DNA of 64,000 bases from an uncultured Dehalococcoidales bacterium (GTDB taxonomy: Bacteria; Chloroflexota; Dehalococcoidia; GIF9; UBA5629): positions 86,864-150,863 of the forward strand of contig CAYTIC010000001.1 in NCBI GenBank assembly GCA_964437795.1, in the 5' to 3' direction. Positions 41,352-60,678 of this stretch are shown one piece after another. Made by a program: the position numbers and the translations under genes. Numbering within the stretch: the first letter of the stretch is position 1; each line of letters begins with the position of its first letter. The notes below the pieces were generated by a model. That model did not search any database, was not told the DNA's origin, and was given only the letters and a program-made list of their open reading frames with translations.

Positions 41352-41385
41352 GTTGTTAACTCCGATAATTTAGACTGAACGACGG

Positions 41386-42633: not shown

Positions 42634-42654
42634 TTCAGCCCCCCCGATATGAAA

Positions 42655-44211: not shown

Positions 44212-44459
44212 TTACATACCTCCATAAATTATTGCATACTATAGTCGCCGACTACAGTTGCTTTATTTGCGAATATAATAAATGCTTTTAACCGATTTGT
44301 CAATGGGACAATATCGAAGGGGCGCCGCAGGTTCGCATCACGTCTTTTGTTCTATTTGGGTATAATATCAGCCGGCGCCATCGGTTTAGCCTTGCTGCCG
44401 AAGATTTCGCGATATACTGCGTACTATTCAACTGTATTTAAACTGGAGGAGAATCAACT

Positions 44460-45110
44460 ATGGAATCACCTATCGTAAAGGTCAAGATCCTGGGTATCTC
44501 GGGAACGCCGATAAAAGACGGCAACTGCGATAAGCTGGTGCAGACAGCTTTAAAGGCGGCGGCGGGTATACCGGGTGTTGAAACCGAGTTCGTGACGCTG
44601 GCGGACAAGAAGATTGCGGAGTGCAAACACTGCCAGTGGTGCGTAAAAAACAAGGCCAGGTGCAATATCAAGGACGATGTCCATGCCGTGCATGACAAGA
44701 TGTTCGCCGCTGACGGTATCATCATGGGAGGCCCGACCTATTGCCAGGTCTTAAGCACCCAGCTTCAGAATGTCTTTTTCAGGGGCAGGGAGGAGATATT
44801 TTTCGGGCACCGCTGTACCGGTAAGATAGGCGGCGCATTAACGCTCGGCTGGTTCGGCGTCGGCATGGAGTTTGCCCTGAAGGTCATCGAACAGATGATG
44901 ATGAGCTGGCAGATTGTCCCGGTAGCCAGGGGAAGCGCCATAGTTAGCACGTTCTGGCAGGGGGAGAAGGTCAGATACCAGGAGGGCGGCGTGCTGGCCC
45001 ATCCGGCAGGGGTATTCAGCGCCATGGGAGTCGGCACGTCTGTAGCTAAATACGCGCAAATGATGAAGTACGCTAAAGACGCGGGCGTGGGCCTGCCGAC
45101 TAAACCGTAG
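44460..45110 (+). CDS. iron-sulfur flavoprotein (Isf-like, NADPH-dependent FMN reductase fold)
   Basis: Flavodoxin-like N-terminus (KILGISGTP) plus the compact Cys motif CKHCQWCVKNKARC (Cx2Cx2Cx5C) typical of the Isf family. Confidence 0.6.
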   Translation: MESPIVKVKILGISGTPIKDGNCDKLVQTALKAAAGIPGVETEFVTLADKKIAECKHCQWCVKNKARCNIKDDVHAVHDKMFAADGIIMGGPTYCQVLSTQLQNVFFRGREEIFFGHRCTGKIGGALTLGWFGVGMEFALKVIEQMMMSWQIVPVARGSAIVSTFWQGEKVRYQEGGVLAHPAGVFSAMGVGTSVAKYAQMMKYAKDAGVGLPTKP

Positions 45111-45138
45111 CCGGCATCCGGGTCCCGCTGAATTTTTG

Positions 45139-46284
45139 TCAGCCGGATGCGTTATCGACGATTTCAACTACATCCAGTATTTGAATTGAATCGCTCGCGC
45201 CCAGGGTGAGCACGGCGTCTTCAAACATCGTCATGCAATAGGGGCATGAAACGGCCAATACCTGTGCCCCGCTTTCCATCGCCTGCCTGACGCGCAGTTC
45301 GGCGAACCGCTCCTCTTTCTTCGATTCCAACCAGAGGCCGCCGGCGCAACCGCCGCAGCATAATGAATCTGCGTGATGGTCGGACATTTCTACCAGGTCC
45401 ACCCCCGGGATGCTGTGCAAAACATTGCGGGGCTCATCATAAATGCCCTGATACCTGCCCAGGCAGCAGGAATCGTGATAGGCAACCTTCTTTTGCGGGC
45501 CCTTGCCCAATTTAACGCTGCCCGCTTTTATCAGCTCATCCAAATACCGGACTATATGGATTACCTCGAAACCGCCGCCGAGCTCAGGGTATTCGTCCTT
45601 TAAAGTGTTGTAACAGTGCGGCGACCCTACCAATATCCTCTTGACGCCCGCAGACTTCAGTGTCTCTATGTTATTCGATGCCAGGCTGGTAAAAAGGCCC
45701 TCCTTGCCCGCCTTCCGTATGCTTTCCCCGCAGCAGGACAGGCCTTTATCGATTATGCCGAAATCCACGTTGGCCCTGCGCAGGACATTTATCATTGACA
45801 CGGCTGTTCTTCGGCACCTGACGTCATAAGCCTGATAGCAGCAAACATACATCAGCATGTCGGTATTTGTTGAATACGCAGCGACATTCAGGCCCCTTAA
45901 CCATTCAGTGCGCGCTTCGTCCGGCTCGCCCAGCGGATTGCCCACACCGGCCAGGTTGGAGGCCACCGTGCGCAGGGAGCGGGGTATCGCGCCCGCGCCT
46001 ACTTCAGAGATGACCCTTCTGAGCGACCTGATCATGCGGGGTATGTCCACGCCGCGCGGACAGGCCTGTGCGCACGATCTGCACCCCACACACTTCCATA
46101 TCTCCTCGTTACCGAAATCGATCAATCCCAGCTGGGCCTGATGCAGCAGGCTGCGAACACCCAGATGCCCGCCTATGTTCCACGGACATACAGCTGTGCA
46201 CAACCCGCACTGAAAACAGTGATCGAGGTCTGCGCCGCCCTGCTCCTTTATGGCATCAGTGATTTCCGGTGATATATCCACCAT
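45139..46284 (-). CDS. HdrD-like fused HdrC/HdrB protein (two 4Fe-4S ferredoxin motifs plus two CCG domains)
   Basis: The CFQCGLCTAVCP and CVGCRSCAQACP motifs are followed by CCG-domain Cys patterns (CCYQ, CCGE, CCLG, CCGGCAGG). Confidence 0.8.
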   Translation of the reverse strand: MVDISPEITDAIKEQGGADLDHCFQCGLCTAVCPWNIGGHLGVRSLLHQAQLGLIDFGNEEIWKCVGCRSCAQACPRGVDIPRMIRSLRRVISEVGAGAIPRSLRTVASNLAGVGNPLGEPDEARTEWLRGLNVAAYSTNTDMLMYVCCYQAYDVRCRRTAVSMINVLRRANVDFGIIDKGLSCCGESIRKAGKEGLFTSLASNNIETLKSAGVKRILVGSPHCYNTLKDEYPELGGGFEVIHIVRYLDELIKAGSVKLGKGPQKKVAYHDSCCLGRYQGIYDEPRNVLHSIPGVDLVEMSDHHADSLCCGGCAGGLWLESKKEERFAELRVRQAMESGAQVLAVSCPYCMTMFEDAVLTLGASDSIQILDVVEIVDNASG

Positions 46285-46314
46285 CTACGCTGTATTCCTT
46301 GCGATCATCTGCAT

Positions 46315-48444
46315 TTACAGATCCTTATACGGGTTCGGCCCGATCTTCTCAATCCCGGTTAGAAACTCATCCAGAATGCCCGGCAGTGTGCCGTATTCCT
46401 CCACGGAAAGCTGCACTACACGCAGCCGCTCCGGCTCCAGCGCCAGCTTGTTAAGGGTATCCTGCATCTTTTGAATCCTGTCGTCGGCCAGCTCGCTGCC
46501 GGTTATGTTATGGCACTGATAGTCTCCACCGTATTTGCAGCCCACCATGATGATGCCGTCGAAACCGCTGGAGAGCGCATCGACGATCCAGACCATATTT
46601 ATCGATCCCAGGCACCTCACGGGTATGACCCTGATAAAGGGATTGAAGGCCATGCGCCCGGTACAGGCCATGTCCAGGGCGGGGTAAGCATCGTTTTCGC
46701 ACAAAAATGCTAGTATGCGCGGCTTGTCCTCTTCCGCCCCCGGCATCTGAATTGACTTGATCATTGATCCTATAATGTCAACCGAATAGTCGGCAAACGA
46801 AATAATCCTCTCAGGACACGCGCCCATACAGATGCCGCACCTCCTGCACCGCGTGGGATTGGGCAGCGGATTATACTTATCGTCCTCGTCATACATGCCG
46901 AAAGGGCACTCTTCAGTGCATCTCTTGCACTGGGTGCACCTGGCCATATAGAGGTCGGGGTAACTGGTATCGCCGGCCCTGGGATGCACTGACTCTCCCC
47001 TGGCAACCATTTCCACACATTGAATGGCCTTGACCACGGCGCCGTTTGCATCTTCACAGCTTGACAGGCTGTCTAAGGGTTGCCTGGCACAGCCGGCTGA
47101 GTAGACGCCTGTACGGCGTGTCTCATAGGGAAAACAGATAAAATGCGAATCCGGGAACCCGTATTTAAGCTCCGGCAATTCCGCGCCCTGCCTGTAGGCC
47201 AGGCTGAGCGCCGGCGGGGGTGACGGTTCAATGCCCGCAGCCAGGACCACCAGGTCGGCCTGTACAGTCACCTTCTCGCCCAAGAGAAGGTCCTGCATTT
47301 CAACCATAATGCCGTTTTCAGCGGCGGCCACTCCGGTTATCTCCGCCCTGGCCAGGTAAACAGACCCCGACTCCTGCGTATTTCGATAGAACTCCTCGTA
47401 CAGGGAAGGCGCGCGCATGTCCTTGTAGAAAATATAGGCCTTTGAATCGGCATTGCTCTTCGTTACGTAAACCGCCTGCTTGAGGGAGGTCAGGCAGCAG
47501 AAGGACGAGCAATACGGCAGATGGCTGTCGTCACGCTGCCCGGCGCACTGAATAAACGCCACGCTTTTTACAGGCTTGCCGTCCGACGGCCTTTTGATCA
47601 CGCCGTCGAAGGCCAATTGCTCCATTTGTACGTTGGTGATGATATCCGGGTGACTGCCGAAACCCAGGTGCGCCAGGCGTTCGGCATTATACGGCTGAAA
47701 TCCGGTGGCTTGAATAATGGAGCCCACCCTCAAAGATACGGCGCCGCTCGGACTCCTGAGAGAAACATCGAACATACCCGGCGAACCCTCGATCTTCTCG
47801 ACCTCCGCCGACTTGAATACCCTGATCAGCGGGTCGTTTTCCAGGGCGGCGGCCAGCGCTACAATCCCGGTGTCCTCCGGTTCCCGGTACGGGGGATGCT
47901 TTGGATATCCACGATATAGTTTCGTCATCCACCCGCCTAAAGAAGGGCTCTTTTCCACCAGGCACACCTCGTATCCGGCCCCGGCGGCGCCCAGCGCGGC
48001 GGTGATCCCAGTTATACCGCCCCCTATGACCAAAATAGTCTTGCTGATCTCGGGCAAATACGGTACCGCAGGAGATGTTTTGGCGATCCCGGCGAGGCCC
48101 ATCCTCAGGCAATCTTCCGCCATCATCTGCGTATCCGGATCGCCAGGCAGGTGGGACCAGGCCACCTGCTCCCTTAAATTCACCCTTTCCAGGATCACAG
48201 AACTATCGAAGGTGAAACATCCCTGTTTAACACGTGGCGAGCAGGCGCCTATCACCAGCCTGCAAGGACTGCCGGCAATGTCATCATCTATCGATAGCCG
48301 CCCATCTGCGCTGCACAGTGACGGATGGATCCGGCAAATGTCGGCTTTATATTCATTGACCGCCACTTCGCTCAATTTCTCGAGTGAAAGGGCCTCCCCG
48401 ATGCCGCACCCGCTGCACAAATATACGGCCAGTTTATTTGCCAT
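46315..48444 (-). CDS. qmoB: QmoB-like protein: HdrA-like flavoprotein with a C-terminal MvhD/FlpD-like domain
   Basis: The start was moved to the ATG at 48444 (MANKLAVYLCSGCGIG). FAD-binding GGGITGITAA motif, ferredoxin Cys clusters and an MvhD-like C-terminal domain. Confidence 0.8.
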   Translation of the reverse strand: MANKLAVYLCSGCGIGEALSLEKLSEVAVNEYKADICRIHPSLCSADGRLSIDDDIAGSPCRLVIGACSPRVKQGCFTFDSSVILERVNLREQVAWSHLPGDPDTQMMAEDCLRMGLAGIAKTSPAVPYLPEISKTILVIGGGITGITAALGAAGAGYEVCLVEKSPSLGGWMTKLYRGYPKHPPYREPEDTGIVALAAALENDPLIRVFKSAEVEKIEGSPGMFDVSLRSPSGAVSLRVGSIIQATGFQPYNAERLAHLGFGSHPDIITNVQMEQLAFDGVIKRPSDGKPVKSVAFIQCAGQRDDSHLPYCSSFCCLTSLKQAVYVTKSNADSKAYIFYKDMRAPSLYEEFYRNTQESGSVYLARAEITGVAAAENGIMVEMQDLLLGEKVTVQADLVVLAAGIEPSPPPALSLAYRQGAELPELKYGFPDSHFICFPYETRRTGVYSAGCARQPLDSLSSCEDANGAVVKAIQCVEMVARGESVHPRAGDTSYPDLYMARCTQCKRCTEECPFGMYDEDDKYNPLPNPTRCRRCGICMGACPERIISFADYSVDIIGSMIKSIQMPGAEEDKPRILAFLCENDAYPALDMACTGRMAFNPFIRVIPVRCLGSINMVWIVDALSSGFDGIIMVGCKYGGDYQCHNITGSELADDRIQKMQDTLNKLALEPERLRVVQLSVEEYGTLPGILDEFLTGIEKIGPNPYKDL

Positions 48445-49705
48445 TTGACCGCCCTTTCCTGACCGACCCAATAGCCTTCAAAACTGCGCCCGTCGCGTCT
48501 CTGACCGACGATCCCACGTCCATCGGCCTTTTCACGCATCCCGCGGCGTAAATACCCGCCAGGTCGGAGACCATAAATCCGCAGGAGTCTTTGCCGGGTC
48601 CGGCGGGCAGCCAGTCCGTCGCTGCAGGGACCATTCCCGTGGCCAGCACCACCATGTCCACCCTTTGCCTGACCATTTTTCCCTGCTCTGTATCCTCAGC
48701 TTCGACGAAAAGGTCGTTTGTTGCGGGGTCCTGCTTTATGCGTGATACCTTCCCGCGAAGGAACGACACCCCTTGCATATCCTGAATCCGACGGTAAAAA
48801 TCCTCCTGCGTACCCTGGGCCCGCAAGTCGATGTAATAGATGGCCACCCGGGCATCCGGATTGTGCTCCTTAATATAAGTTGCCTGCTTAAGCGAAGCCA
48901 TGCAGCAGACGCCCGAACAGTAGGACAGGTGGTTTACGTCCCGGGAGCCCGCACACTGCACGAATGCGATTGAGGATACCTCTTTTCCGTCCGACGGACG
49001 CACCAGGCGCCCGTCACGCAGCCCGGCGCCTGATGCCAGCCTCTCCATCATCATATTGGTGATTACATTGGGATAAACGCCGAAGCCGAGCCGGTTCAGC
49101 CGGGCTGCATCATAAGATTCCCAACCCGTGGTCACTATAATCGATCTGCAATTGACCGTGACCACCTGCTCTTCCATCTGCAGGTCGATAGCCCCGTAAC
49201 GGCAGGCGGAAACGCATTTTGCGCAATCGCTGCCCGTACAGGCATCTTTATCCACGGTATATGTCGGAGGATATGCCTGCACATGCGGCAGGTAAATAGC
49301 TTTAGTGTTGTCCCACCCGTAGTTGAAATCGTTCGGCCTTTGGACCGGGCAAACCGTTTCACATTCGCCGCAGGCCGTGCAATTATCGTTCACCATGCGC
49401 GGCAGCAGCCGGACCGATACCTTGAAGTCTCCCTCACTTCCCTCAACAGCCTCCACCATAGCCATGGTGAAAACCCTGATTCCCCGATTAACCTTGATCC
49501 GCTTGAAATTGAGCTCGAGGCCGCAGGCCGGGGGACATAGTTTGGGGAAATAGCGGCTCATCCTGACGGCCTTCCCTCCCAGGAAAGGCTCCTTCTCAAG
49601 CAGGATGATCTTGTAACCTATCTCGACCGCCTCAACCGCCGCGGCTATCCCGCTTACACCGCCGCCCACTACCAGGATATCGGTTGAAACAGCAGTCTGT
49701 TGCAT
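48434..49705 (-). CDS. qmoA: QmoA-like HdrA-type flavoprotein
   Basis: 423 aa with an N-terminal GGGVSGIAAA FAD motif. HdrA-like with no extra domains. Immediately downstream of aprA. Confidence 0.8.
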   Translation of the reverse strand: MQQTAVSTDILVVGGGVSGIAAAVEAVEIGYKIILLEKEPFLGGKAVRMSRYFPKLCPPACGLELNFKRIKVNRGIRVFTMAMVEAVEGSEGDFKVSVRLLPRMVNDNCTACGECETVCPVQRPNDFNYGWDNTKAIYLPHVQAYPPTYTVDKDACTGSDCAKCVSACRYGAIDLQMEEQVVTVNCRSIIVTTGWESYDAARLNRLGFGVYPNVITNMMMERLASGAGLRDGRLVRPSDGKEVSSIAFVQCAGSRDVNHLSYCSGVCCMASLKQATYIKEHNPDARVAIYYIDLRAQGTQEDFYRRIQDMQGVSFLRGKVSRIKQDPATNDLFVEAEDTEQGKMVRQRVDMVVLATGMVPAATDWLPAGPGKDSCGFMVSDLAGIYAAGCVKRPMDVGSSVRDATGAVLKAIGSVRKGRSNGK

Positions 49706-49720
49706 AGAGCGCCAGCGTTA

Positions 49721-51610
49721 TCAGCCGACCAATGGGATAACGTCCTTCTTAAATACCGACCATTTGCCGGAAGCGGGGTCCCACCTGCAATTGACGAAAC
49801 ACTTCCAGTTGCTGTCGTCCAGCCGGGGTACATCCGCCCGGAAATAGTAGCCGGGCCACCTGGTCTCTTCCCTGAAGAGCACCGAACGGATATGTGATTC
49901 GGCCTGCCACAGCCGGTGCTGGTTTTCCCAGCAGCGCATGAGCTCGTGGAGGTTTTCGGCCGCCAGTTTTTCCGCATCTTCGCGCAGGAAATCCAGCAAT
50001 TCAAGGCCCTTCTCCAACGAGAGCTTATTGGTCGTAAACTGGGTAGTTGCGCCCCCTGCGTACTCATCCATGATCTTCTGCAGCCGTACCATGAACTGCT
50101 TCGGCTTGAGATAATTTTCGCTGACATCCGGATTGTCGGTAAGTTTGCCGTACTGGTCAAACAGTTCAAGCGGTTTGAAAAGGCGTTTCTTAAGCGCTTC
50201 AACCTGCGCAGTATCGATGTTCGGCTGCTCCGGATGATCGACTATATAGGCGATGGATGCTTTAGCAGCGATCCTGCCTTCGCAATGCGAGCCGTCGGAG
50301 AACTTATGGCTGGATGCGCCGGACGCGTCGCCTGCGCAGAATATCCCTTTCACGGTGGCCATACGGTTATAACCCCAAAAATACTCTTTGGGTGACAGGT
50401 CTTCCGGTCCGCTGACCCATGCGCCCGAAGCGCCTGAATGCGAACCTATGAAATATGGTTCGCAGGCCTGTATTTCTGAGGGCTTTTCCTCGGGCTGCGT
50501 ATTGGTCCCCGCCCAGAGAATGGCCTGCGATATTGTCATATCCAGAAAATCTTCCCACGCTTCCGATTCGACCTCTTTCATGCGTTTTCGCCGTTCTTTT
50601 TCATCGCTGATGGCGGAGAGCATCCTGGCAATTGCTTCATCAGTTCGCATGTACATAGGGCCCTTGCCTTCATTTTGGTCCAGCATCATCAGGTAATTTC
50701 GCAGGTTGGCGGGGATGGGCTTGGACGATCCGTACGGCCCCCAGTTCTCCAGGTCTTTCTTGCGCTCCGACATGTAATCCTGGCCGAGCGCATTGGTAGC
50801 TATAGACTTGAAAAGAAGGAACCATGCGCCGACGGGCCCATAGGCGTCTTTGAAACGAACCGGGATAAAACGCACTTCCTGGCACGTCATCTCGCAGCCG
50901 CTCTTCAAAGTAAAATAGGCGCTTGAACCGCTGTTGAAGGGGGGATACCAGCTCCTTCCCTGCCCTTCACCTACCGAGCGGGGCCGGAATATGTGCACTG
51001 CACCGCCCATGGCCACCAGGACCGCTTTAGCCTTGAATATGTAGAACTTGTTCTCGCGTGTGCTGAAGCCGACAGCTCCTGCAACCCTGTCTCCATCGAT
51101 AAGCGGCTCTACTATGAATACCCGCTCATAGATATTATTTTCGCCAATAGTTGCCAGCGCGTTGCGGGCCGCCTCTGCAACAATGTTTTTATACGATTCA
51201 CCGTTGATCATGACCTGCCAGCCGCCCTCGAATACATAGTCGCCTTTATCGTCTTTCCAGATGGGAAGGCCCCACTTCTCGAAGAGGTGCACCGTGCTGT
51301 CCACGTGCCGCGCGATATCGTATACAAGGTCCTCGCGGGAGATGCCCATCAGGTCGTTCCTGACATAGCGCACGTAGTCTTCCGGGGTCTTGTCCCTGCT
51401 CTTCATGCCGACATACATATTGAGAGCGGAAAGCCCCTGTGCGACCGCGCCGCTGCGCTCGATGGCAGCCTTGTCGACCAGCGTCACCTTCAGGTTGTGC
51501 CTCTTCGCCCAGTAAGCGGCTTCGACCGCGGCGCCGCAGGCCGCCATGCCGCCGCCGATGATAAGCAGGTCGGTGTTTACTTCTACCGTCTGTATTTCTG
51601 ACATGAACAA
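49721..51610 (-). CDS. aprA: adenylylsulfate (APS) reductase alpha subunit
   Basis: 629 aa fumarate-reductase-type flavoprotein with an N-terminal IIGGGMAACGAA motif. Has the tight gene order aprB-aprA. Confidence 0.9.
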   Translation of the reverse strand: MFMSEIQTVEVNTDLLIIGGGMAACGAAVEAAYWAKRHNLKVTLVDKAAIERSGAVAQGLSALNMYVGMKSRDKTPEDYVRYVRNDLMGISREDLVYDIARHVDSTVHLFEKWGLPIWKDDKGDYVFEGGWQVMINGESYKNIVAEAARNALATIGENNIYERVFIVEPLIDGDRVAGAVGFSTRENKFYIFKAKAVLVAMGGAVHIFRPRSVGEGQGRSWYPPFNSGSSAYFTLKSGCEMTCQEVRFIPVRFKDAYGPVGAWFLLFKSIATNALGQDYMSERKKDLENWGPYGSSKPIPANLRNYLMMLDQNEGKGPMYMRTDEAIARMLSAISDEKERRKRMKEVESEAWEDFLDMTISQAILWAGTNTQPEEKPSEIQACEPYFIGSHSGASGAWVSGPEDLSPKEYFWGYNRMATVKGIFCAGDASGASSHKFSDGSHCEGRIAAKASIAYIVDHPEQPNIDTAQVEALKKRLFKPLELFDQYGKLTDNPDVSENYLKPKQFMVRLQKIMDEYAGGATTQFTTNKLSLEKGLELLDFLREDAEKLAAENLHELMRCWENQHRLWQAESHIRSVLFREETRWPGYYFRADVPRLDDSNWKCFVNCRWDPASGKWSVFKKDVIPLVG

Positions 51611-51623
51611 TATCCCCCGGATT

Positions 51624-52076
51624 TCAGTCCTTTTTTAACGTCGGTAATTTTTCGATGCCCAGTGATTCTGGCTCAGTGAACAACAGCGGGCTTTTCAATT
51701 CGTCAGCCTCAGGCGCTGTATTAAAGCCCCCGTCCGGAACCGCCGAGCCCTCGGGAGTGGTGCGGGTGCGAAACTTAAAGCGCTTGATGGCGCCGTTTCT
51801 GAATTTCACGGTCCAGATGATGCTGTCGCTGCCTCTCAGAGGTGTAACACTCGCTCCAAGGGGCACGAAATCCGCGTATCCCCTGACGGCTATAGCCTGC
51901 TGAGGGCATATCTTTACGCAGCTATAGCATTCCCAGCACATGGAAGGGTCGCGGTTGAATGCCTTCTGCGTCTCTCCATTCAGGGCCATCAGGTCGTTGG
52001 GACAAATGTACTGGCAGGCTGTCTTATCCTTGCCTTTGCAGCCGTCACATTTACTGATGATTACAAAACTCGGCAT
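51624..52076 (-). CDS. aprB: adenylylsulfate (APS) reductase beta subunit
   Basis: 150 aa starting MPSFVIISKCDGCKG, with CWECYSCVKICPQ. Two 4Fe-4S motifs and the C-terminal tail typical of AprB. Confidence 0.9.
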   Translation of the reverse strand: MPSFVIISKCDGCKGKDKTACQYICPNDLMALNGETQKAFNRDPSMCWECYSCVKICPQQAIAVRGYADFVPLGASVTPLRGSDSIIWTVKFRNGAIKRFKFRTRTTPEGSAVPDGGFNTAPEADELKSPLLFTEPESLGIEKLPTLKKD

Positions 52077-52091
52077 ATCCTTATTCCTTAT

Positions 52092-52916
52092 TTACATATA
52101 GCCCAGGCCGCGCAAGCGTTTCATCATCTTTTCCTTGTCCTGCCGCCGGCCCGCTCTCTCCGTCGTGTGTTCAAGGTCCTGCTCCCAGGCAGGAACGCCC
52201 GGGGCCGCTATGGCGCTGGTGGTCTTTGCTCCCAGCGATCGATAGCCTTTTTCGTACAGTATGCAATAGGGTATTTTAAATACCTGATACGTGTTCCATA
52301 GCTCTCTCTCCGAGAAGTGCAGTATGGGCTTAATGCGCGTATGCTGGGGGATCAGGTAGGCCGCTTCTTTTACCTCGAAATAGTCGTCCTCGGCACGGGC
52401 GTTCTGCTCGTCCCTCCGCAAACCCTGGAAGATCGCCTTGACCCCGTTCTGTTCGATATACACGTTGAACATGACCGTTTTCATCAGGTGATTGCCGGTA
52501 TATGATTCAGCCTCGAAGGGAAATGTATCTTCCTTGTAGTCTATGCGCTTGAGTTCAGCCTGGTTTCTCTCGTTTAAATCCTTGACCTTGACGATGTTAT
52601 TCAGCTTGCCGCCGGCGGCCTTGATAACATCATCGTTGCGCATCCATGTCAGATCCAGCTTCCATTCCGCCGCATAGCGGTCCATGAAATCGTGTATCTC
52701 GTCGAAGGTATCGAACTCGTCTATCGTCATGACTTTGGGGACCTTTATTTTGTCCTCCTGGCAGACCTGGCGAATAATCCACAGCGCAAGCGTGCTGTCC
52801 TTGCCACCCGTCCAGGTGATAGCAAGATCATCCAGCTTAAACTTGCCGAATGACTCCCTGACTATTGCCTTCGACTTGTCGATCAGTCCCGCGCATTCTT
52901 TTTCCATACTGGCCAT
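52092..52916 (-). CDS. CysD-like protein (sulfate adenylyltransferase small subunit / PAPS-reductase fold). No adjacent CysN.
   Basis: PP-loop motif TWTGGKDST, central RRDEQNARAED (compare CysD ARRDEEKSRAKE), and a C-terminus TTERAGRR...KMMKRLRGLGY resembling the CysD C-terminus TTSERQGR...MELKKRQGYF. Confidence 0.65.
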   Translation of the reverse strand: MASMEKECAGLIDKSKAIVRESFGKFKLDDLAITWTGGKDSTLALWIIRQVCQEDKIKVPKVMTIDEFDTFDEIHDFMDRYAAEWKLDLTWMRNDDVIKAAGGKLNNIVKVKDLNERNQAELKRIDYKEDTFPFEAESYTGNHLMKTVMFNVYIEQNGVKAIFQGLRRDEQNARAEDDYFEVKEAAYLIPQHTRIKPILHFSERELWNTYQVFKIPYCILYEKGYRSLGAKTTSAIAAPGVPAWEQDLEHTTERAGRRQDKEKMMKRLRGLGYM

Positions 52917-52932
52917 TATCGGTCCCCCTTTT

Positions 52933-54138
52933 TTACTTTATCCATCTTTTTATCCTTGGTTTGAGCCTGGATTGCAGCCTTACTGTCTCCTTTGAAGACT
53001 GTGCAATATCGTGCAACTCACCCGGGTCGTCCTTGAGGTCATACAGCTCCCAGCGGTCCGGTTCCGCCCTGTAGATCAGCTTCATGTCGCCTTCCCGGCA
53101 GAAATACACATCCTTATTGATGTCGCCGCCTTTGACGCTTTTATTGTCGATGGCCTCACCGAAGGCGCCCTTTTCAACATATGCCCCCACGGGCAGCAGT
53201 GATTGTCCCTGGAAAGACGCCGCCGGATCGATACCGAAAAGGTGGAGAATAGTGGGCGGAATGTCTATGCTGCTGACCAGGCTGGAGCATACACCGCTTG
53301 AATCCGCCCCGTATATCAGCAACGGGACATCGATCAATTCCGCATACAGCTTGTCGTCGTGCGACAGCCCGCCGTGCTCGTTAAACTCATCCCCGTGGTC
53401 GCTGGTCATGATGACGGTGGTGGAATCGAGTATATGCAAATCCTCAAGCGATTTAAATAACGACTGTACGTAAGAATCCACCTCGCGGACGTGCACGTCA
53501 TACAGCCGTTTCAGCAGTGTTACCCTGGCGGGATCCGAGACGTCCCTCTTGAGCAGAGTATCCTCAAACAGCGCATACATCTCGTCCTGGCTGATCTTAA
53601 TTTCGGGGTCTACCATGTCTACATAGCTTCTTTCCGGCATATAAGGCTCATGCACGTCCATGTAATGAAGCCATAAAAAGAACGGAGCATGGTCTTTCTT
53701 CTTTACATAGGACGAAAGCCACTGCACTACCTTGTCATTGATCGTGTAACCCCGCACATATGACAGGCGTTCATCTTCGAGATCGTCGTCCAGGGAGTCA
53801 TAGAACACGTCCCATCCCCGGTCCCAGCCCAGCACGGAGCTGCAATAGGGATTGGAATGGAACCCGGCGGTGTATATGCCGGCTTTTTGCAGTACCTCCG
53901 ATACTATGGAGCGCCGGGGCGCCAAACCTTCGGGCTTACCGTAATCCAGGTAGTACCCCGAGCACAATATGGCGGGAAACGACGCCTGGGTATAAGGACC
54001 GGCGCTCTGGCTCCCGGTAAATACTATGCTGCGGTCTTTGAGGGAGTCGACGAACGGGGTTAATCCCCTGGTATTACCATACAGCCCGAATACATCCTTC
54101 CGGGTTGCATCCAGTGTAATCAAGACAACGTTTTTCAT
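52933..54138 (-). CDS. sulfatase-family (alkaline-phosphatase superfamily) protein, cytoplasmic, lacking the C/S-x-P-x-R formylglycine motif
   Basis: N-terminal VVLITLDATRKDVFGLYGN metal-binding motif. No signal peptide. The expected CxPxR position reads FTGSQSAGPYTQASF. Confidence 0.65.
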   Translation of the reverse strand: MKNVVLITLDATRKDVFGLYGNTRGLTPFVDSLKDRSIVFTGSQSAGPYTQASFPAILCSGYYLDYGKPEGLAPRRSIVSEVLQKAGIYTAGFHSNPYCSSVLGWDRGWDVFYDSLDDDLEDERLSYVRGYTINDKVVQWLSSYVKKKDHAPFFLWLHYMDVHEPYMPERSYVDMVDPEIKISQDEMYALFEDTLLKRDVSDPARVTLLKRLYDVHVREVDSYVQSLFKSLEDLHILDSTTVIMTSDHGDEFNEHGGLSHDDKLYAELIDVPLLIYGADSSGVCSSLVSSIDIPPTILHLFGIDPAASFQGQSLLPVGAYVEKGAFGEAIDNKSVKGGDINKDVYFCREGDMKLIYRAEPDRWELYDLKDDPGELHDIAQSSKETVRLQSRLKPRIKRWIK

Positions 54139-54168
54139 AGTGATAATTGATTGAAAAAGGGGCCGGAC

Positions 54169-55497
54169 TTAATATCCCAGCCGTTTCATCCTTGTTTCCA
54201 TCTTCTTCTTTTTATCGGCGCTGCTTGCTGCCGGACGTGCTGCCTGTGTTGCAGGGGCAGACTGGTCGGTGGCTATTTCGCTGGAGGCCTTGCCCTTCAC
54301 CAGCGTCCCGGCCGTGCTGCCGGAAATCGGCCTTGCCTGGGGGTTGAACGCCTCCGGCCCGTACAGCCTGTTCCACATGTCGAGTTTTTCCGAGTCAAGC
54401 TTTCTGCCCTGCAGTCCCGGGTAGTCCGGATCATAGCGGTGGCAGCGGAATGTGCAGTTGCTCAGGCCGTAAGGTGAAAGGGTATCCCTGTGGTTATAGA
54501 AAGGCACTATATATTCCCAGACGATTTCGCCTGTGGTGGTAACTTCGAAGAAACGCCCCATCCCGCCTTCGCACACCAGCGTATTGCCGTTGGGCAGCCG
54601 TTCACAGCCGCCGATATAGGTCGTATTGAAATCTACGGGGTTCTCTTCCCTGAACTCCCACTCGACCTCGTTGGTTTTGGGGTTCACTTCAACGACGCGG
54701 CTGCCGTCCGGCGGGAAGTAATCAACGTTGTACCTGTTGTTATTGAGCACCAGTATGTTGCCGTTATCCAGCAGCGTGGGGTTGTGCGGCATAGAGAGGA
54801 AGCCTTTTCCCCAGCGCCACTTGAAATCGCCGGAACTCCTGTCGATGATAAAAAGGTTGTCGCAGCCGAAAGAACATAACATGATGTCGCCGTTGGGCAA
54901 TTCCTCGAGTGAATTGAGGCCCACCCATGCCAGGCGCATCTGCAGCGGCGCGAAACAATCGAGCTCGAGGTCGAAGTGCTGATAACCCAGCCATTCCCAG
55001 GCTATTTTGCCCTGCGGGGTGATCTCCTGTATTACGTTGCCGTGAAGAGGTATGTCAATGCCGAGGATGCCTTTAGGAGACACGCCGCCCTGCACTTTGG
55101 CGGCTATTTCTTCCGGAATCGGGACGTACTTCATGATAAGCGTATTGCCGTTCTTGCTGCGCTTGCGATCATGGGCGTCCATGTTTTCATCCTCGTATTT
55201 CCAGACCACATTGCCGTCCCAGTCCAGTTCAACGACGCGTTTTGCCACAGTCGGTATCGATGAAGGAGGCGCTCCCACGTCATCCAGGGCACACAGGATA
55301 TTCCCGTTGGGAAGCAGGTCCGCATGCAGGCGCACCCACCCCGGCAGTTTCCAGCGGTGAACGAAACGTCCCTGCATATCGATCAGCCAGGTATTGCCCG
55401 GTACCTGTGTCATTGGGCTGAACAACGTGAAGCCGGGATATGCTTTGTGTGGTTTATACTCGGTAACCGATTGTAATGCTCTTCTTGCGGATGGCAT
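54169..55497 (-). CDS. arylsulfotransferase (ASST)-like beta-propeller protein with a CysD-like C-terminal tail
   Basis: Repeated NGN[IT]L / DxDGN blade motifs (LPNGNILC, DWDGNVVW, KNGNTLIM, LDNGNILV, LPNGNTLV). A low-complexity linker precedes the terminal ...KKKKMETRMKRLGY. Confidence 0.5.
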   Translation of the reverse strand: MPSARRALQSVTEYKPHKAYPGFTLFSPMTQVPGNTWLIDMQGRFVHRWKLPGWVRLHADLLPNGNILCALDDVGAPPSSIPTVAKRVVELDWDGNVVWKYEDENMDAHDRKRSKNGNTLIMKYVPIPEEIAAKVQGGVSPKGILGIDIPLHGNVIQEITPQGKIAWEWLGYQHFDLELDCFAPLQMRLAWVGLNSLEELPNGDIMLCSFGCDNLFIIDRSSGDFKWRWGKGFLSMPHNPTLLDNGNILVLNNNRYNVDYFPPDGSRVVEVNPKTNEVEWEFREENPVDFNTTYIGGCERLPNGNTLVCEGGMGRFFEVTTTGEIVWEYIVPFYNHRDTLSPYGLSNCTFRCHRYDPDYPGLQGRKLDSEKLDMWNRLYGPEAFNPQARPISGSTAGTLVKGKASSEIATDQSAPATQAARPAASSADKKKKMETRMKRLGY

Positions 55498-55563
55498 ATG
55501 ACATATCCTCCTCTCAGTATTAAAAATCGTTATTGCTGAACTTAAATCTATTACTTTAAATGA

Positions 55564-55576
55564 GGATTGGCAATAC
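55564..55576 (-). promoter_or_regulatory. 13-bp motif GTATTGCCAATCC (copy A), 67 bp upstream of the ASST-like start. Shared with the MFS promoter region.
   Basis: Exact 13/13 match to 56469-56481, in the same orientation relative to the downstream gene. Both copies are followed by CATT(T)AA. Confidence 0.45.
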
Positions 55577-55693
55577 TCAGGCCGTGGTATTTTAGAAAAC
55601 GGTTGTGGCGTGGACCGGCATCACTATGTAGCGGGAAACGGGCTGCCGGAACACTGATTCAACTACTATCGGAGTATTATGCGGGGGAACAGG

Positions 55694-56335
55694 TCAATAA
55701 TGAGCTATCAGCCAGGCCGCCGCTTCACCGCGTGTGTGCAGACACACCTTCTTCATCACGTTTCGCATATGCACTTTGACCGTATTCTCCGATATCGAGA
55801 GCGTCGCAGCTATATCCTTATTGACATGGCCTTTGCCGACCAGCGCGAGGACTTCCCTCTCCCTGTTAGTCAATAACGGCACACGGACATGCACCTTTTT
55901 CTGCAGGCTGTCGAACGTATGCAGTACGCTGTTTGCCATTTGCGGGGAAAGCACCAGCTCACCGTCGGCGATCAGGGTAACGGCCTTCACCAGGTTTTCA
56001 AGGGTTATGTCCCGGGTTACATAACCGGACGCTTCGTGATGAATAATCGTGCCCAGGTCCTGTTGCTCTTTGGGCCATCCGAACACGAGTATTTTCACAT
56101 CGGGCATGTCACGGTGGATAAGCGATATCACCTCGTCATAGGTACAGGCCCTTATCTCGGAGTCGATCAGCACCACATCCGGCTTTTCGCGCTGGGCAAT
56201 TTTGACCACCTCGAATCCCGTGCTGCATACTCCCACGACGCGGATGGCCGTGTCGGATTCCAGCAGTTTCGGCAACGCTTTACAAATAATGTCCATAGTA
56301 TCGGCAACTATGAGCTTTACCGCTGTGCTAACCAA
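55694..56335 (-). CDS. LuxR/NarL-family response regulator (REC domain plus LuxR-type HTH)
   Basis: The C-terminal LTNREREVLALVGKGHVNKDIAATLSISENTVKVHM is a LuxR HTH. The track ORF starts at a TTG at 56395. A better start is the TTG at 56335, which has an AGGAGG RBS 8 nt upstream and gives MVSTAVKLIVAD... Confidence 0.7.
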   Translation of the reverse strand: MVSTAVKLIVADTMDIICKALPKLLESDTAIRVVGVCSTGFEVVKIAQREKPDVVLIDSEIRACTYDEVISLIHRDMPDVKILVFGWPKEQQDLGTIIHHEASGYVTRDITLENLVKAVTLIADGELVLSPQMANSVLHTFDSLQKKVHVRVPLLTNREREVLALVGKGHVNKDIAATLSISENTVKVHMRNVMKKVCLHTRGEAAAWLIAHY

Positions 56336-56468
56336 TCTGCTTTCCTCCTGCCGTTCAACGACAGCATAATACCATGGTATTAGTGGCGTAAACAATATGT
56401 CAAGTAATATGTATGACGTTACAGGTTATATTGACTTACATTCAAATTCTCAATCTAACCCCCTATTG

Positions 56469-56481
56469 GTATTGCCAATCC
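56469..56481 (+). promoter_or_regulatory. 13-bp motif GTATTGCCAATCC (copy B), about 51 bp upstream of the MFS transporter start
   Basis: Exact 13/13 match to the reverse complement of 55564-55576. Confidence 0.45.
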
Positions 56482-56531
56482 CGCCATTAAGGTTTAGATT
56501 TTATTGTAAATCGGGGAGACAGGAGGGACAT

Positions 56532-59520: not shown

Positions 59521-59668
59521 GCTGCAACCTCCTCAAACTATAAATCTGCCAGGATTTCTCTGTTTGTGCCCATCCAGTTTATCAAGGTTCTCTTATACAG
59601 TAAACATCAGCAGCCTTTGAAAAGGGGGTAAGGGTTTGCTATCATTCAAACCGCACTTGTAAAACCAT

Positions 59669-59899: not shown

Positions 59900-59906
59900 A
59901 ACTTCT

Positions 59907-60665: not shown

Positions 60666-60678
60666 GACTGACCTCCTG

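What the first reader, a model, noticed from the sequence alone, without database searches (positions are those of the whole stretch)
45139..56335. APS reductase-Qmo module fused to sulfotransferase-like, sulfatase-family and stand-alone CysD-like genes: candidate undescribed organosulfate-linked APS pathway
Eight minus-strand genes are packed with gaps of 10-30 bp or overlaps. They are, in order, an ASST-like beta-propeller, a cytoplasmic sulfatase-family protein, a CysD-like protein, aprB, aprA, qmoA, qmoB and a fused HdrC/B protein. In described sulfate reducers and sulfur oxidisers the aprBA-qmo module is partnered with sat (homo-oligomeric ATP sulfurylase). Here the position upstream of aprB is taken by a CysD-type PP-loop protein with no CysN GTPase, plus two enzymes that normally handle sulfate esters. 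This suggests APS is supplied or consumed by a route other than the classical Sat route. One possibility is sulfuryl transfer from aryl/alkyl sulfate esters, making organosulfate respiration feed AprAB. Another is the reverse: sulfite to APS to sulfate-ester synthesis. The operon sits next to a LuxR-type response regulator and a divergent MFS transporter, a plausible substrate importer.
Basis: partly seen in the sequence, partly recalled or inferred. Interest (0 to 1): 0.85.

Follow-up and report, generated by a model that had tools for sequence, protein, structure and literature searches.

The report
Organosulfate cassette replacing sat before aprBA
In this Chloroflexota genome, the gene that normally activates sulfate for sulfate respiration (sat) is replaced by a widespread, uncharacterised three-enzyme cassette that probably feeds sulfate groups from organic sulfate esters into the APS pool.

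Summary
Eight tightly packed minus-strand genes (45139-55497) encode an ASST-like beta-propeller, a sulfatase-fold protein, a CysD-like PP-loop protein, AprB, AprA, QmoA, QmoB and a fused HdrC/B. A LuxR-type regulator and a divergent MFS transporter lie next to them. The same unit recurs in four other Chloroflexota genomes or contigs. In the nearest AprA relatives, sat sits where the trio sits here.

The trio is not special to apr. In 73 species-level genomes from many anaerobe phyla, the CysD-like gene lies beside the sulfatase-fold gene and ASST-like paralogs. It is usually joined by classical sat, a TauE exporter and organic-anion importers. Sat and AprBA-Qmo are therefore alternative partners, which points to APS as the shared intermediate.

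Two new points emerged:
- The "sulfatase" lacks the formylglycine motif and has an invariant Thr instead, which suggests a transferase rather than a hydrolase.
- A C-terminal tail, [DE]KExΦxxRLxxLGY, is shared by four unrelated enzyme families of the system, including both the ASST-like and CysD-like proteins here.

My preferred model (about 0.35) is a sulfuryl relay from aryl sulfates to APS, which AprBA then reduces. No description of this was found in the searchable literature. It is interesting but biochemically untested.

The parts
54169..55497 (-). ASST-like six-bladed beta-propeller (442 aa). It is cytoplasmic, with no signal peptide. A disordered linker of about 40 residues is followed by the C-terminal tail ...KKKKMETRMKRLGY.
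   Evidence: PF14269 scores 48 bits and PF05935 43 bits. The AF2 model has pLDDT 85, with the propeller above 90, the linker 392-432 below 50 and a tail helix at 428-439. The best Foldseek matches are Cpz4 (9kf4, 8.6e-19) and E. coli ASST (3ets, 3.3e-12). H109 and H238 are invariant, and Y442 is invariant in 60 homologs.
52933..54138 (-). Sulfatase-fold (alkaline-phosphatase superfamily) protein (401 aa) with Thr50 in place of formylglycine. It is cytoplasmic.
   Evidence: PF00884 scores 141 bits and SGSH_C is also hit. Thr50 aligns on the FGly position of sulfatase 5g2v. The motif GPYTQ[AS]SFP is invariant in 44 of 44 homologs. So are D10, D247-H248 (DHGDEF), H94, H158, H163 and K263.
52092..52916 (-). 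Stand-alone CysD-like PP-loop protein (274 aa). It has the PP-loop TWTGGKDS and the C-terminal tail ...ERAGRRQDKEKMMKRLRGLGYM.
   Evidence: PF01507 scores 85 bits; the CysD models score below their cutoffs. It is 22% identical to E. coli CysD and shares the HxxxMKT motif and the ...GY[FM] C-terminus. The fold matches FMN adenylyltransferase, APS reductase and CysD about equally well. The C-terminal 48 residues have pLDDT below 50. Identity across phyla is 58-92%.
51624..52076 (-). aprB, the APS reductase beta subunit.
   Evidence: TIGR02060 scores 200 bits against a cutoff of 136. PF12139 scores 120 bits.
49721..51610 (-). aprA, the APS reductase alpha subunit. The ORF starts at TTG. Homologs are 627 aa, so the true start may lie two codons downstream.
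   Evidence: TIGR02061 scores 909 bits against a cutoff of 642. It is 75-81% identical to Chloroflexota AprA and 75% identical to Desulfofundulus AprA.
48434..49705 (-). qmoA, an HdrA-like FAD/FeS protein.
   Evidence: HdrA2 model scores 375 bits over residues 2-361, with FAD and Fer4 domains. It sits after aprA, as in L077 and L080.
46315..48471 (-). qmoB, HdrA-like with a C-terminal MvhD/FlpD domain. The TTG start overlaps qmoA by 38 nt. The homolog in L077 is 709 aa, so the true start is probably slightly downstream.
   Evidence: PF02662 FlpD scores 128 bits and Pyr_redox_2 and Fer4 domains are also hit. Synteny is shown.
45139..46284 (-). Fused HdrC/HdrB-like protein (Fer4 dicluster plus 2x CCG). 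It takes the place of membrane-bound QmoC.
   Evidence: PF02754 CCG scores 102 bits in two stretches, with Fer4_8 and Fer4_10 hits. The qmoC model matches only the N-terminal ferredoxin part. QmoAB-HdrBC is a described variant (PMC10504309).
55694..56395 (-). NarL/LuxR-type response regulator. The gene call in the identical Logan contig is 213 aa, which puts the start near 56335.
   Evidence: Response_reg plus GerE; NarL model 127 bits. It is conserved upstream of the ASST gene in L004, L005 and L077.
56397..57821 (+). Divergent MFS organic-anion transporter, the likely substrate importer.
   Evidence: MFS_1 scores 212 bits. There are weaker hits to aromatic-acid, 4-hydroxyphenylacetate and MhpT transporter models. 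One or two copies are conserved in L004 and L077.

Best explanation
**What it is.** This is one inducible operon for respiring the sulfate group of imported organic (probably aryl) sulfate esters.

**Proposed steps.**
1. The MFS transporter imports a sulfated organic acid.
2. The ASST-like propeller takes the sulfuryl group from the ester. ASSTs are obligate phenol-to-phenol transferases that work through a sulfo-histidine.
3. The sulfuryl group passes along a protein relay: the Thr-type sulfatase-fold enzyme acts as a transferase, not a hydrolase, and hands it on to the CysD-like PP-loop protein.
4. The conserved C-terminal ...RLxxLGY tails on flexible linkers act as docking arms. Possibly they act as sulfotyrosine carriers.
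5. The sulfuryl group ends up as APS without going through classical Sat.
6. AprBA reduces APS to sulfite plus AMP. Electrons come from the soluble QmoAB-HdrCB complex.

In other phyla the same cassette hands APS to Sat instead (APS + PPi gives ATP + sulfate). A TauE-type exporter then removes the sulfate.

**Shown here:** gene content, synteny, the Thr substitution, the shared tails, and the alternative pairing with Sat or Apr.

**Inferred:** APS as the common intermediate, the catabolic direction, the order of the relay, and any role for the tail tyrosine.
For: - **Place of sat.** The trio sits where sat sits in the nearest AprA operons. L080 and L082 read RR, sat, aprBA, qmoAB, hdrCB next to dsrMK-like genes. 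L081 lies next to dsrC and dsrAB-like genes.
- **Conserved cassette.** In 73 species-level genomes the sulfatase-fold gene lies directly upstream of the PP-loop gene in about 45 loci. ASST-like genes are present in 51 loci (71 copies), sat in 40, TauE in 19, and TRAP or TTT importers in 17-20 and 16 loci respectively.
- **Sat and Apr are alternatives.** Apr-linked loci lack a cluster sat. Sat-linked loci lack apr. The nine flank-complete loci with neither include six from Desulfarculales, Desulfobacteraceae, Thermodesulfobacteriota or 'Deltaproteobacteria' MAGs, lineages that commonly reduce sulfate. This pattern fits APS as what the cassette hands over.
- **Thr instead of FGly.** This holds in 44 of 44 homologs, while the metal ligands and the Lys and His residues of sulfatases are retained. 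From established knowledge, FGly is what allows hydrolytic release of the covalent sulfate. Thr-type PF00884 enzymes (EptA, LtaS) are group transferases.
- **Gene fusions.** The sulfatase-fold and PP-loop proteins are fused in L052. Tandem ASST-ASST fusions also exist.
- **Shared tail.** The tail [DE]KExΦxxRLxxLGY is found in 64 of 66 PP-loop, 22 of 71 ASST-like, 10 of 11 NPP-type and 7 sulfatase-cluster ORFs (6 of a second Thr-type paralog, plus the PP-loop end of the L052 fusion). It is found in no other family among 987 ORFs. In the window it occurs only in these two genes out of 276 ORFs. It occurs in 0 of 120 AprA homologs.
- **Tethered tail.** AF2 shows a disordered linker followed by a short helix.
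- **Direction.** SBP-dependent importers, GntR or LuxR regulators and an exporter suggest catabolism. The window is also rich in CoA-ligase and beta-oxidation genes.
Against: - No biochemistry exists for any cassette member.
- The CysD-like protein keeps a canonical PP-loop (TGGKDS) and CysD-specific motifs. Plain ATP sulfurylase activity on free sulfate is therefore a simpler reading.
- Making APS from an ordinary aryl or alkyl sulfate plus AMP is uphill by roughly 9-10 kcal/mol. This is my estimate from textbook group-transfer potentials. It would need tight coupling or channelling.
- AF2 gives no confident docking of either tail.
- E. coli CysD has a similar ...GYF end with no known carrier role.
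- In a second cassette variant (Syntrophaceae and related) there is no sulfatase-fold gene, so that enzyme is not universally needed.
- The rest of this genome could not be searched, so it may encode sat and dsr elsewhere.
- Co-transcription is inferred from spacing only. The promoter and terminator scans were at background level.
Confidence: 0.35

Rival explanations
1. Conventional route through free sulfate. The ASST-like and sulfatase-fold enzymes simply strip sulfate from imported esters in the cytoplasm. The stand-alone CysD-like protein then acts as a GTPase-independent ATP sulfurylase (ATP + sulfate gives APS + PPi), replacing Sat. AprBA reduces the APS. The Thr-type enzyme might instead be a pyrophosphatase or phosphodiesterase that pulls the reaction.
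For: - The protein has a canonical PP-loop, the HxxxMKT motif and a CysD-type C-terminus. CysD is its best NCBIfam hit.
- It sits exactly where sat sits in sister operons.
- The window contains no sat.
- This reading needs only known chemistry.
Against: - Orthologs of the CysD-like protein (58-92% identity) share a cluster with a bona fide sat in 40 of 73 loci, often directly adjacent. Two ATP sulfurylases in one operon is odd. Those clusters carry a TauE exporter and no APS-consuming enzyme.
- ASSTs need a phenolic acceptor and hydrolyse poorly (established knowledge).
- The Thr-for-FGly change argues against hydrolysis (PMC5066984).
- This reading does not explain the tail shared by four enzyme families.
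Confidence: 0.25
2. Reverse, sulfating direction. APS is the donor. Sat makes it in most phyla. In this clade AprBA makes it by oxidising sulfite with AMP, passing electrons to Qmo-Hdr. The CysD-like protein takes the sulfuryl group from APS, analogous to the CysH half-reaction but onto its tail Tyr. The ASST-like enzymes pass it to imported phenolic acceptors for detoxification or activation, and TauE exports the products.
For: - The reaction runs downhill from APS.
- It resembles the two-step sulfation in caprazamycin biosynthesis, where the ASST-type enzyme Cpz4 (the best structural match) uses a phenolic sulfate carrier. That pathway detail is from memory.
- The tail position corresponds to the mobile catalytic tail of CysH-type enzymes. 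The C-terminus is disordered in the model.
- Sat and AprBA are both reversible.
Against: - It would cost two ATP equivalents per sulfate in energy-limited anaerobes.
- This AprA belongs to the reductive Gram-positive and Chloroflexota sulfate-reducer lineage. Its relatives sit beside dsrMK, dsrC and dsrAB-like genes.
- Cluster make-up (SBP-dependent importers, catabolic-type regulators, surrounding beta-oxidation genes) looks catabolic.
- No obvious electron acceptor for sulfite oxidation is encoded nearby.
Confidence: 0.12
3. The cassette does chemistry that is not centred on sulfate, and its adjacency to apr or sat is a secondary or regulatory association. The PP-loop enzyme and the Thr-type AP-superfamily enzymes would carry out adenylyl or phosphodiester transfer on an unknown metabolite. 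The propellers would be binding or lyase proteins.
For: - The PP-loop protein is as close to FMN adenylyltransferases as to CysD or CysH: FAD synthase 8rom at 1.8e-11 against CysD 1zun at 5.8e-9, and the Foldseek scores are similar.
- Thr-type PF00884 and NPP enzymes normally act on phosphodiesters.
- No curated NCBIfam model reaches its cutoff for any of the three proteins.
Against: - Three independent sulfur-specific partners recur: Sat in 40 loci, AprBA-Qmo in the window clade, and a TauE/SafE exporter in 19 loci.
- The propeller's two best structural matches are both sulfotransferases.
- The cassette replaces sat precisely within a dissimilatory operon.
Confidence: 0.12

Closest known systems
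sat-aprBA-qmoAB-hdrBC operon of Gram-positive and Chloroflexota sulfate reducers (dissimilatory sulfate reduction)
   Same: aprB, aprA, qmoA, qmoB and the fused hdrC/B are in the same order. AprA is 75-81% identical. A LuxR-type response regulator lies upstream. QmoAB-HdrBC in place of QmoABC is a described variant (PMC10504309).
   Different: Sat is absent and is replaced by three genes: ASST-like, Thr-type sulfatase-fold and CysD-like. A divergent MFS importer is attached. No dsr genes lie within 64 kb.
CysDN, the heterodimeric GTP-driven ATP sulfurylase
   Same: Both belong to the PAPS_reduct superfamily and have a canonical PP-loop, the HxxxMKT motif, RRDE and a C-terminal ...ER.GR..D..M....GY[FM].
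   Different: Identity is only 22% and the CysD models score below cutoff. The roughly 40-residue insertion of CysD between PLY and RTLG is missing. No CysN GTPase is present in the window or among the recurrent neighbours. The constant partner is instead a Thr-type sulfatase-fold protein, which is fused to it in L052.
PAPS-independent arylsulfate sulfotransferases (E. coli ASST; Cpz4 of caprazamycin biosynthesis)
   Same: They share the beta-propeller fold. Best Foldseek matches are 9kf4 (8.6e-19) and 3ets (3.3e-12), and the Pfam ASST models score above cutoff. Like Cpz4, the protein is cytoplasmic. The Cpz system also relays sulfate through a phenolic carrier (from memory).
   Different: There is no signal peptide, unlike E. 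coli ASST. The protein has a long disordered linker and a conserved RLxxLGY tail that is absent from actinomycete ASST-family proteins. It is embedded in an APS-linked operon rather than a biosynthetic cluster.
Formylglycine-dependent (S1) sulfatases
   Same: PF00884 fold plus SGSH_C. The metal-binding Asp and Asp-His are conserved, as are a Lys and several His residues at sulfatase active-site positions.
   Different: The [CS]-x-P-x-R motif is replaced by T-Q-[AS]-S-F, so no formylglycine can form. No maturase gene is seen nearby. By analogy with the Thr-type members of the fold (EptA, LtaS), it is more likely a transferase.
Sulfite-oxidising APS pathway (AprBA + Sat, with QmoAB-HdrBC or AprM) in sulfur oxidisers and organosulfonate degraders
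   Same: It uses AprBA with a Qmo-Hdr-type partner, and APS is the intermediate. A Sat plus TauE pairing, as in many cassette loci, also occurs in sulfonate degraders.
   Different: The AprA lineage here is the reductive Gram-positive and Chloroflexota type. The associated enzymes handle sulfate esters, not sulfonates. No sulfonate-cleaving enzymes are present.

Membership tests
Dissimilatory APS reductase AprBA | AprA and AprB equivalog models score above their curated cutoffs, and AprB carries the specific C-terminal domain. | tested here: met
   TIGR02061 scores 909.5 against 641.75. TIGR02060 scores 199.6 against 135.65. PF12139 scores 119.7 bits.
Dissimilatory APS reductase AprBA | Catalyses APS + 2e- to or from AMP + sulfite. 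| not testable with these tools
   Needs an enzyme assay.
QmoABC complex | Two HdrA-like flavoproteins encoded directly after aprBA, the second with an MvhD/FlpD domain. | tested here: met
   Synteny is conserved in L005, L006, L077 and L080.
QmoABC complex | Membrane-bound di-haem QmoC subunit. | tested here: not met
   The third gene is a soluble Fer4 plus 2x CCG (HdrC/B) fusion. The qmoC model matches only residues 9-93. This fits the described QmoAB-HdrBC variant (PMC10504309).
Formylglycine-dependent (S1) sulfatase | PF00884 fold with conserved metal ligands. | tested here: met
   PF00884 scores 140.7 bits. D10, D247 and H248 are invariant.
Formylglycine-dependent (S1) sulfatase | [CS]-x-P-x-R motif that directs formylglycine formation (PROSITE PS00523; PMC5066984). 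| tested here: not met
   Thr50-Q-A-S-F aligns on the motif of 5g2v. GPYTQ[AS]SFP is present in 44 of 44 homologs.
Formylglycine-dependent (S1) sulfatase | A sulfatase-maturing enzyme (anSME or FGE) is available. | tested here: inconclusive
   None was found among the annotated window ORFs or the recurrent neighbour families.
CysD (sulfate adenylyltransferase subunit 2) | PP-loop SGGxDS and PAPS_reduct fold. | tested here: met
   TWTGGKDS is invariant. PF01507 scores 85 bits. The fold match is shown.
CysD (sulfate adenylyltransferase subunit 2) | Scores above the curated CysD family cutoffs. | tested here: not met
   NF003587 scores 74.8 against 195. TIGR02039 scores 47.8 against 396.6. Identity to E. 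coli CysD is 22%.
CysD (sulfate adenylyltransferase subunit 2) | A partner CysN GTPase is encoded alongside. | tested here: not met
   No GTPase is present in the window annotation or among the recurrent neighbour families of the 73 loci.
CysD (sulfate adenylyltransferase subunit 2) | ATP + sulfate to APS + PPi activity. | not testable with these tools
   Needs an assay.
CysH-type APS/PAPS reductase | Catalytic Cys in the C-terminal ECGLH tail. | tested here: not met
   The tail is ...RLRGLGYM and contains no Cys. The only invariant Cys is C52.
PAPS-independent arylsulfate sulfotransferase (ASST) | ASST Pfam models score above cutoff and the fold is an ASST-type beta-propeller. | tested here: met
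   PF14269 scores 48.3 against 27. PF05935 scores 43.2 against 24.2. Foldseek top hits are Cpz4 and E. coli ASST.
PAPS-independent arylsulfate sulfotransferase (ASST) | Catalytic His that forms the sulfo-histidine intermediate. | tested here: inconclusive
   H109 and H238 are invariant, and H47 and H174 nearly so. H174 and H238 align with His residues of 9kf4. Which one is the nucleophile was not determined.
PAPS-independent arylsulfate sulfotransferase (ASST) | Periplasmic location (E. coli-type ASST). | tested here: not met
   The N-terminus MPSARRALQSVTEYKPHKAYPGF has no signal-like hydrophobic segment. This resembles cytoplasmic Cpz4.
Homo-oligomeric ATP sulfurylase Sat as operon partner | A PF01747 plus PUA_2 gene lies next to aprBA. 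| tested here: not met
   tblastn with a cassette-associated Sat finds nothing in the window. Sat is present in sister operons L080 and L082.

The most novel reading that the evidence does not exclude
The cassette is a protein-tethered sulfuryl relay that converts the energy-rich sulfate-ester bond directly into APS, with no ATP spent.

- Front-end enzymes (ASST-like, NPP-like and second sulfatase-like proteins) load the terminal tyrosine of their RLxxLGY tails as sulfotyrosine.
- The Thr-type sulfatase-fold enzyme shuttles the sulfuryl group to the tail tyrosine of the CysD-like protein.
- In the CysD-like active site the sulfuryl group is joined to AMP, giving APS.

Fermenters such as Atribacterota, Aerophobetes and Dehalococcoidia would then make ATP from APS + PPi through Sat. 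That would be substrate-level phosphorylation from organosulfates. This Chloroflexota clade would respire organosulfate through AprBA without paying the two-ATP activation cost of sulfate reduction.
Probability: 0.18. Interest if true: 0.95.

Novelty: new variant of a known kind. Interest (0 to 1): 0.8.

Why it matters
**The activation cost.** Every described dissimilatory sulfate reducer activates sulfate with Sat, at a cost of two ATP equivalents. An operon where Sat is replaced by organosulfate-handling enzymes suggests that some subsurface Chloroflexota respire sulfate esters directly. Organic sulfate esters are a large sulfur pool in sediments that is rarely counted in sulfur budgets.

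**Reach of the cassette.** The cassette occurs in many uncultivated anaerobe phyla and is usually paired with Sat and an exporter. If it interconverts sulfate esters and APS, it is a missing link between the organic and inorganic sulfur cycles. It may also be a new way of conserving energy.

**Value without the mechanism.** Two findings are concrete and testable whatever the mechanism:
- a conserved Thr-for-formylglycine sulfatase-fold family;
- a C-terminal peptide shared by four unrelated enzyme families, which looks like a docking or carrier system.

**Annotation.** The genes are currently annotated as "sulfatase", "PAPS reductase" and "hypothetical". The "sulfatase" label at least lacks support, because the formylglycine motif is absent.

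Tried and rejected
- **Canonical FGly sulfatase:** rejected. There is no C/S-x-P-x-R motif and Thr is invariant at that position.
- **CysD-like protein as a CysH-type reductase:** rejected. The tail has no Cys.
- **CysD-like protein as a plain Sat substitute:** weakened. It shares a cluster with sat in 40 of 73 loci.
- **Tail as an encapsulin or microcompartment targeting peptide:** considered, because the layout of linker plus short conserved C-terminal peptide is similar. No shell-protein family appears among the recurrent neighbours, so it is not favoured.
- **AF2 models, to see whether the tails dock in cis:**
  - The CysD-like C-terminus (227-274) has pLDDT below 50.
  - The ASST tail helix has pLDDT of about 60 and follows a disordered linker.
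  - There is no confident docking, and multimer modelling was not available.
- **Promoter and terminator scan of 44300-56700:** counts were at shuffle background and uninformative.
- **Literature:** seven full-text searches found no description of the cassette or of an apr operon with this front end. The library lacks most subscription journals.
- **Whole-genome check for sat, dsr and cysN:** not possible. Only the 64-kb window and stretches of up to 10 kb either side of the match in related loci could be read.
- **Exact-sequence lookup of the window protein:** it returned only one 8-kb Logan contig.

Full report
**1. Observation**

The region holds eight co-directional minus-strand ORFs between 45139 and 55497. 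The gaps between them are 13-30 bp, with one overlap. A response-regulator gene lies 196 bp upstream, and an MFS gene is divergent.

- AprA: TIGR02061, 909 bits against a cutoff of 642.
- AprB: TIGR02060, 200 bits against 136, with the APS-reductase_C domain.
- QmoA and QmoB: two HdrA-like flavoproteins. The second has a FlpD/MvhD domain.
- A Fer4 plus 2x CCG protein, i.e. a fused HdrC/B.
- A 274-aa PAPS_reduct protein whose best curated hit is CysD, but far below cutoff (75 against 195 bits).
- A 401-aa PF00884 "Sulfatase" protein (141 bits).
- A 442-aa protein that hits both ASST Pfam families above cutoff.

The window contains no sat, TauE, cysN or dsr genes. QmoAB with HdrBC instead of membrane-bound QmoC is a described variant in Gram-positive sulfate reducers and some other lineages (PMC10504309).

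**2. Is the arrangement real and conserved?**

An identical 8-kb contig exists in a public run.

A search with the CysD-like protein found 2537 metagenomic relatives. More than 100 of them are at least 77% identical.

A scan of one genome per species found 73 loci. The closest hit is 92% identical and comes from an uncultured Chloroflexia MAG. Most of the next hits are Dehalococcoidia.

The full arrangement (RR, ASST, sulfatase-fold, PP-loop, aprB, aprA, qmoA, qmoB, hdrCB) recurs in L005 and in the metagenome contigs L077/L078. In L077/L078 the flanks are different (rpoB and two MFS genes on one side; AAT and PAP2 on the other). It recurs in part in L006, which is cut at its 5' end, and in L004, where no AprA hit reached the coverage filter. 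It is therefore a conserved unit, not a chance juxtaposition.

AprA is 75-81% identical to AprA of other Chloroflexota, and 75% identical to that of the Gram-positive sulfate reducer Desulfofundulus.

In the nearest outgroup operons, the gene in front of aprB is classical sat. It is preceded by a similar LuxR-type regulator and lies next to dsrMK-like genes (L080, L082). In L081 the operon lies beside dsrC and dsrAB-like genes. The trio here therefore occupies the slot that sat holds in sister lineages.

**3. The trio is a widespread cassette, and apr is only one of its partners**

I mapped synteny by tblastn and clustered all ORFs of the 73 loci. The results were:
- The sulfatase-fold gene lies directly upstream of the CysD-like gene in about 45 loci.
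- ASST-like genes (one to three paralogs, 71 copies) are present in 51 loci.
- The most frequent further neighbour is a bona fide ATP sulfurylase (PF01747 plus PUA_2, 321 bits). It is present in 40 loci, usually directly flanking the pair.
- Other recurrent neighbours are a TauE/SafE-type anion exporter (19 loci), TRAP (17-20 loci) or TTT (16 loci) importers, an NPP-type phosphodiesterase (11 loci) and GntR regulators.

The hosts span Dehalococcoidia, Syntrophaceae, Desulfarculales, Desulfobacteraceae, Atribacterota, Aerophobetes, Actinomycetota, Clostridia, Acidobacteriota, Binatia and Latescibacteria. All are MAGs or SAGs.

aprBA-qmo is attached only in the window's clade, and there the cluster has no sat. 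Of the 27 loci with at least 5 kb on both sides, 18 have sat. The nine with neither sat nor apr include six MAGs of Desulfarculales, Desulfobacteraceae, Thermodesulfobacteriota or 'Deltaproteobacteria', lineages that commonly reduce sulfate.

The simplest reading is that the cassette produces or consumes APS, and that either Sat or AprBA then processes it. This argues against the CysD-like protein being merely a Sat replacement, because its orthologs normally sit next to Sat.

**4. What the three proteins are**

*Sulfatase-fold protein.* In the alignment to sulfatase 5g2v, Thr50 sits on the formylglycine position. The motif C/S-x-P-x-R is replaced by T-Q-A-S-F. Across 44 cassette homologs, GPYTQ[AS]SFP is invariant. 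So are the metal ligands (D10, D247, H248) and the Lys and His residues typical of sulfatase active sites.

SulfAtlas states that formylglycine is directed by [CS]-x-P-x-R. It also states that Thr-type PF00884 proteins cannot be assumed to be sulfatases (PMC5066984).

From established knowledge, formylglycine is what lets the covalent sulfate leave hydrolytically. Thr-type members of this fold (EptA, LtaS) are group transferases. I therefore read this protein as a transferase.

*CysD-like protein.* It has a canonical PP-loop (TWTGGKDS). It shares with E. coli CysD the HxxxMKT motif and the C-terminal signature: TTERAGRRQDKEKMMKRLRGLGYM here, against [26 protein letters not shown] in E. coli. 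Identity is only 22%. It lacks CysD's internal insertion and has no CysN partner. It also lacks the catalytic Cys tail of CysH.

By sequence and by fold it is about as close to FMN adenylyltransferases and APS reductases as it is to CysD. Its last 48 residues are modelled with pLDDT below 50, which indicates a mobile tail. In one complete MAG chromosome it is fused to the sulfatase-fold protein (L052).

*ASST-like protein.* The AF2 model has pLDDT 85. Its best structural matches are Cpz4, the cytoplasmic ASST-type sulfotransferase of caprazamycin biosynthesis (8.6e-19), and E. coli ASST (3.3e-12). It has no signal peptide. Several His residues are invariant.

**5. The shared tail**

The ASST-like protein ends in a disordered linker of about 40 residues, followed by ...KKKKMETRMKRLGY. 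The CysD-like protein ends in ...DKEKMMKRLRGLGYM.

Across the loci, the motif [DE]KExΦxxRLxxLGY occurs in:
- 64 of 66 CysD-like proteins;
- 22 of 71 ASST-like proteins;
- 10 of 11 NPP-type proteins;
- 7 ORFs of the sulfatase cluster: 6 copies of a second, also Thr-type, sulfatase-fold paralog, plus the L052 fusion, whose tail is its PP-loop end.

It occurs in no other family among 987 ORFs. In the window it occurs only in these two genes out of 276 ORFs. In the database hits it is present in 120 of 120 CysD-like, 58 of 120 ASST-like and 0 of 120 AprA proteins. Actinomycete ASST-family proteins lack it.

Where two ASST paralogs lie side by side, usually one has the tail and the other does not. 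Fused double-ASST proteins also exist.

A short conserved peptide on a flexible tether, shared by otherwise unrelated enzymes of one system, indicates docking to a common partner. Because ASSTs transfer sulfate between phenols, and the invariant last residue of the motif is Tyr, a sulfotyrosine carrier role is an attractive possibility. It is unproven, and AF2 did not dock the tails in cis.

**6. Mechanism**

My preferred model has confidence of about 0.35:
1. A sulfated organic acid is imported. The window is rich in CoA ligases, thiolases, hydratases and SDRs, which suits phenolic or alicyclic acids.
2. The ASST-like enzyme removes the sulfuryl group.
3. The Thr-type transferase and the CysD-like protein convert it to APS.
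4. AprBA reduces APS to sulfite, with electrons from QmoAB-HdrCB.

In other phyla Sat would convert the APS plus PPi to ATP and sulfate, and TauE would export the sulfate.

The weak points are these:
- The thermodynamics are unfavourable. APS lies about 9-10 kcal/mol above ordinary sulfate esters by my estimate.
- The canonical PP-loop is equally compatible with ordinary ATP sulfurylase activity.
- There is no biochemistry at all.

The main rival (0.25) is hydrolysis to free sulfate, followed by CysD-like ATP sulfurylase activity. The reverse, sulfating direction (0.12) and non-sulfur chemistry (0.12) remain possible.

**7. Novelty and verdict**

The apr-qmo-hdr module is known. The front end is not. 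No NCBIfam model reaches its cutoff for any of the three proteins. Seven full-text searches found no description of the cassette or of this operon type. The library does omit most subscription journals.

I class it as a new variant of the dissimilatory APS-reductase operon. It is built around an uncharacterised but widespread cassette. There is an 18% chance that it represents a categorically new sulfuryl-relay pathway. Interest is 0.8.

Noticed in passing
window 6943-7391 and 4001-8000: Five tRNA genes lie in a row on the minus strand (Leu-TAA, Cys, Gly-GCC, Leu-GAG, Trp). They sit inside a stretch with GC of 0.43-0.44, against about 0.55 elsewhere. A second low-GC stretch lies at 36001-40000. 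This may be island or insertion territory.
   Followed up: no
window 21535-23070, 27684-36253, 40590-44211, 57859-63078: The window has a dense set of acid-degradation genes. These are four AMP-binding CoA ligases, two thiolase-like proteins, an enoyl-CoA hydratase, an acyl-CoA dehydrogenase, an OYE flavoprotein, two Amidohydro_2 proteins, several SDRs, a URO-D-like protein (37458-38549) and a penicillin amidase. They suggest catabolism of aromatic or alicyclic acids, possibly the desulfated carbon skeletons.
   Followed up: partly
L052 8684-10807 (CP070673.1, Deltaproteobacteria MAG chromosome): The Thr-type sulfatase-fold and CysD-like proteins are encoded as one 707-aa ORF. It carries the GPYTEAAMPG motif, TGGKDS at residue 469 and an LGYM end. 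This is a Rosetta-stone-type fusion, although an assembly frameshift was not excluded.
   Followed up: partly
P0248-P0255 (about 760 aa): Some proteins consist of two tandem ASST-like propellers. Many loci also have adjacent paralog pairs in which only one copy carries the tail. Both observations suggest hetero-dimeric ASST-like enzymes.
   Followed up: no
L021, L022, L025, L028, L029, L032, L037, L038, L046, L050 and others: A second cassette variant occurs in Syntrophaceae and Thermodesulfobacteriota MAGs. Its order is TctCBA importer, GntR, a distant 447-aa propeller ending ...SGKVFVRNLMMN, the CysD-like gene, sat, TauE, DUF3047 and an SLT_2 transglycosylase. It has no sulfatase-fold gene.
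   Followed up: partly
L027, L034, L035, L044, L049, L060, L074; L010, L012, L015: Small unannotated ORFs recur between sat or the PP-loop gene and TauE. They are c16 (about 103 aa), c24 (about 142 aa, membrane-like) and c30 (about 95 aa). Their function is unknown.
   Followed up: no
window 54161-54182 (minus strand): A terminator-like hairpin with a T-run lies exactly at the stop codon of the ASST-like gene, in the 30-bp gap before the sulfatase-fold gene. Site counts in the region were at shuffle background, so it may mean nothing. It could allow differential expression of the front-end gene.
   Followed up: no
L002 (JGI Ga0401392_0000077, 346-kb contig) 4636-12458: An 80%-identical relative has a histidine kinase, a response regulator split into two ORFs, the tailed ASST-like gene, the sulfatase-fold gene, the CysD-like gene and an MFS gene. 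Neither sat nor apr lies within 10 kb. The cassette can therefore stand alone, even in a close relative.
   Followed up: partly
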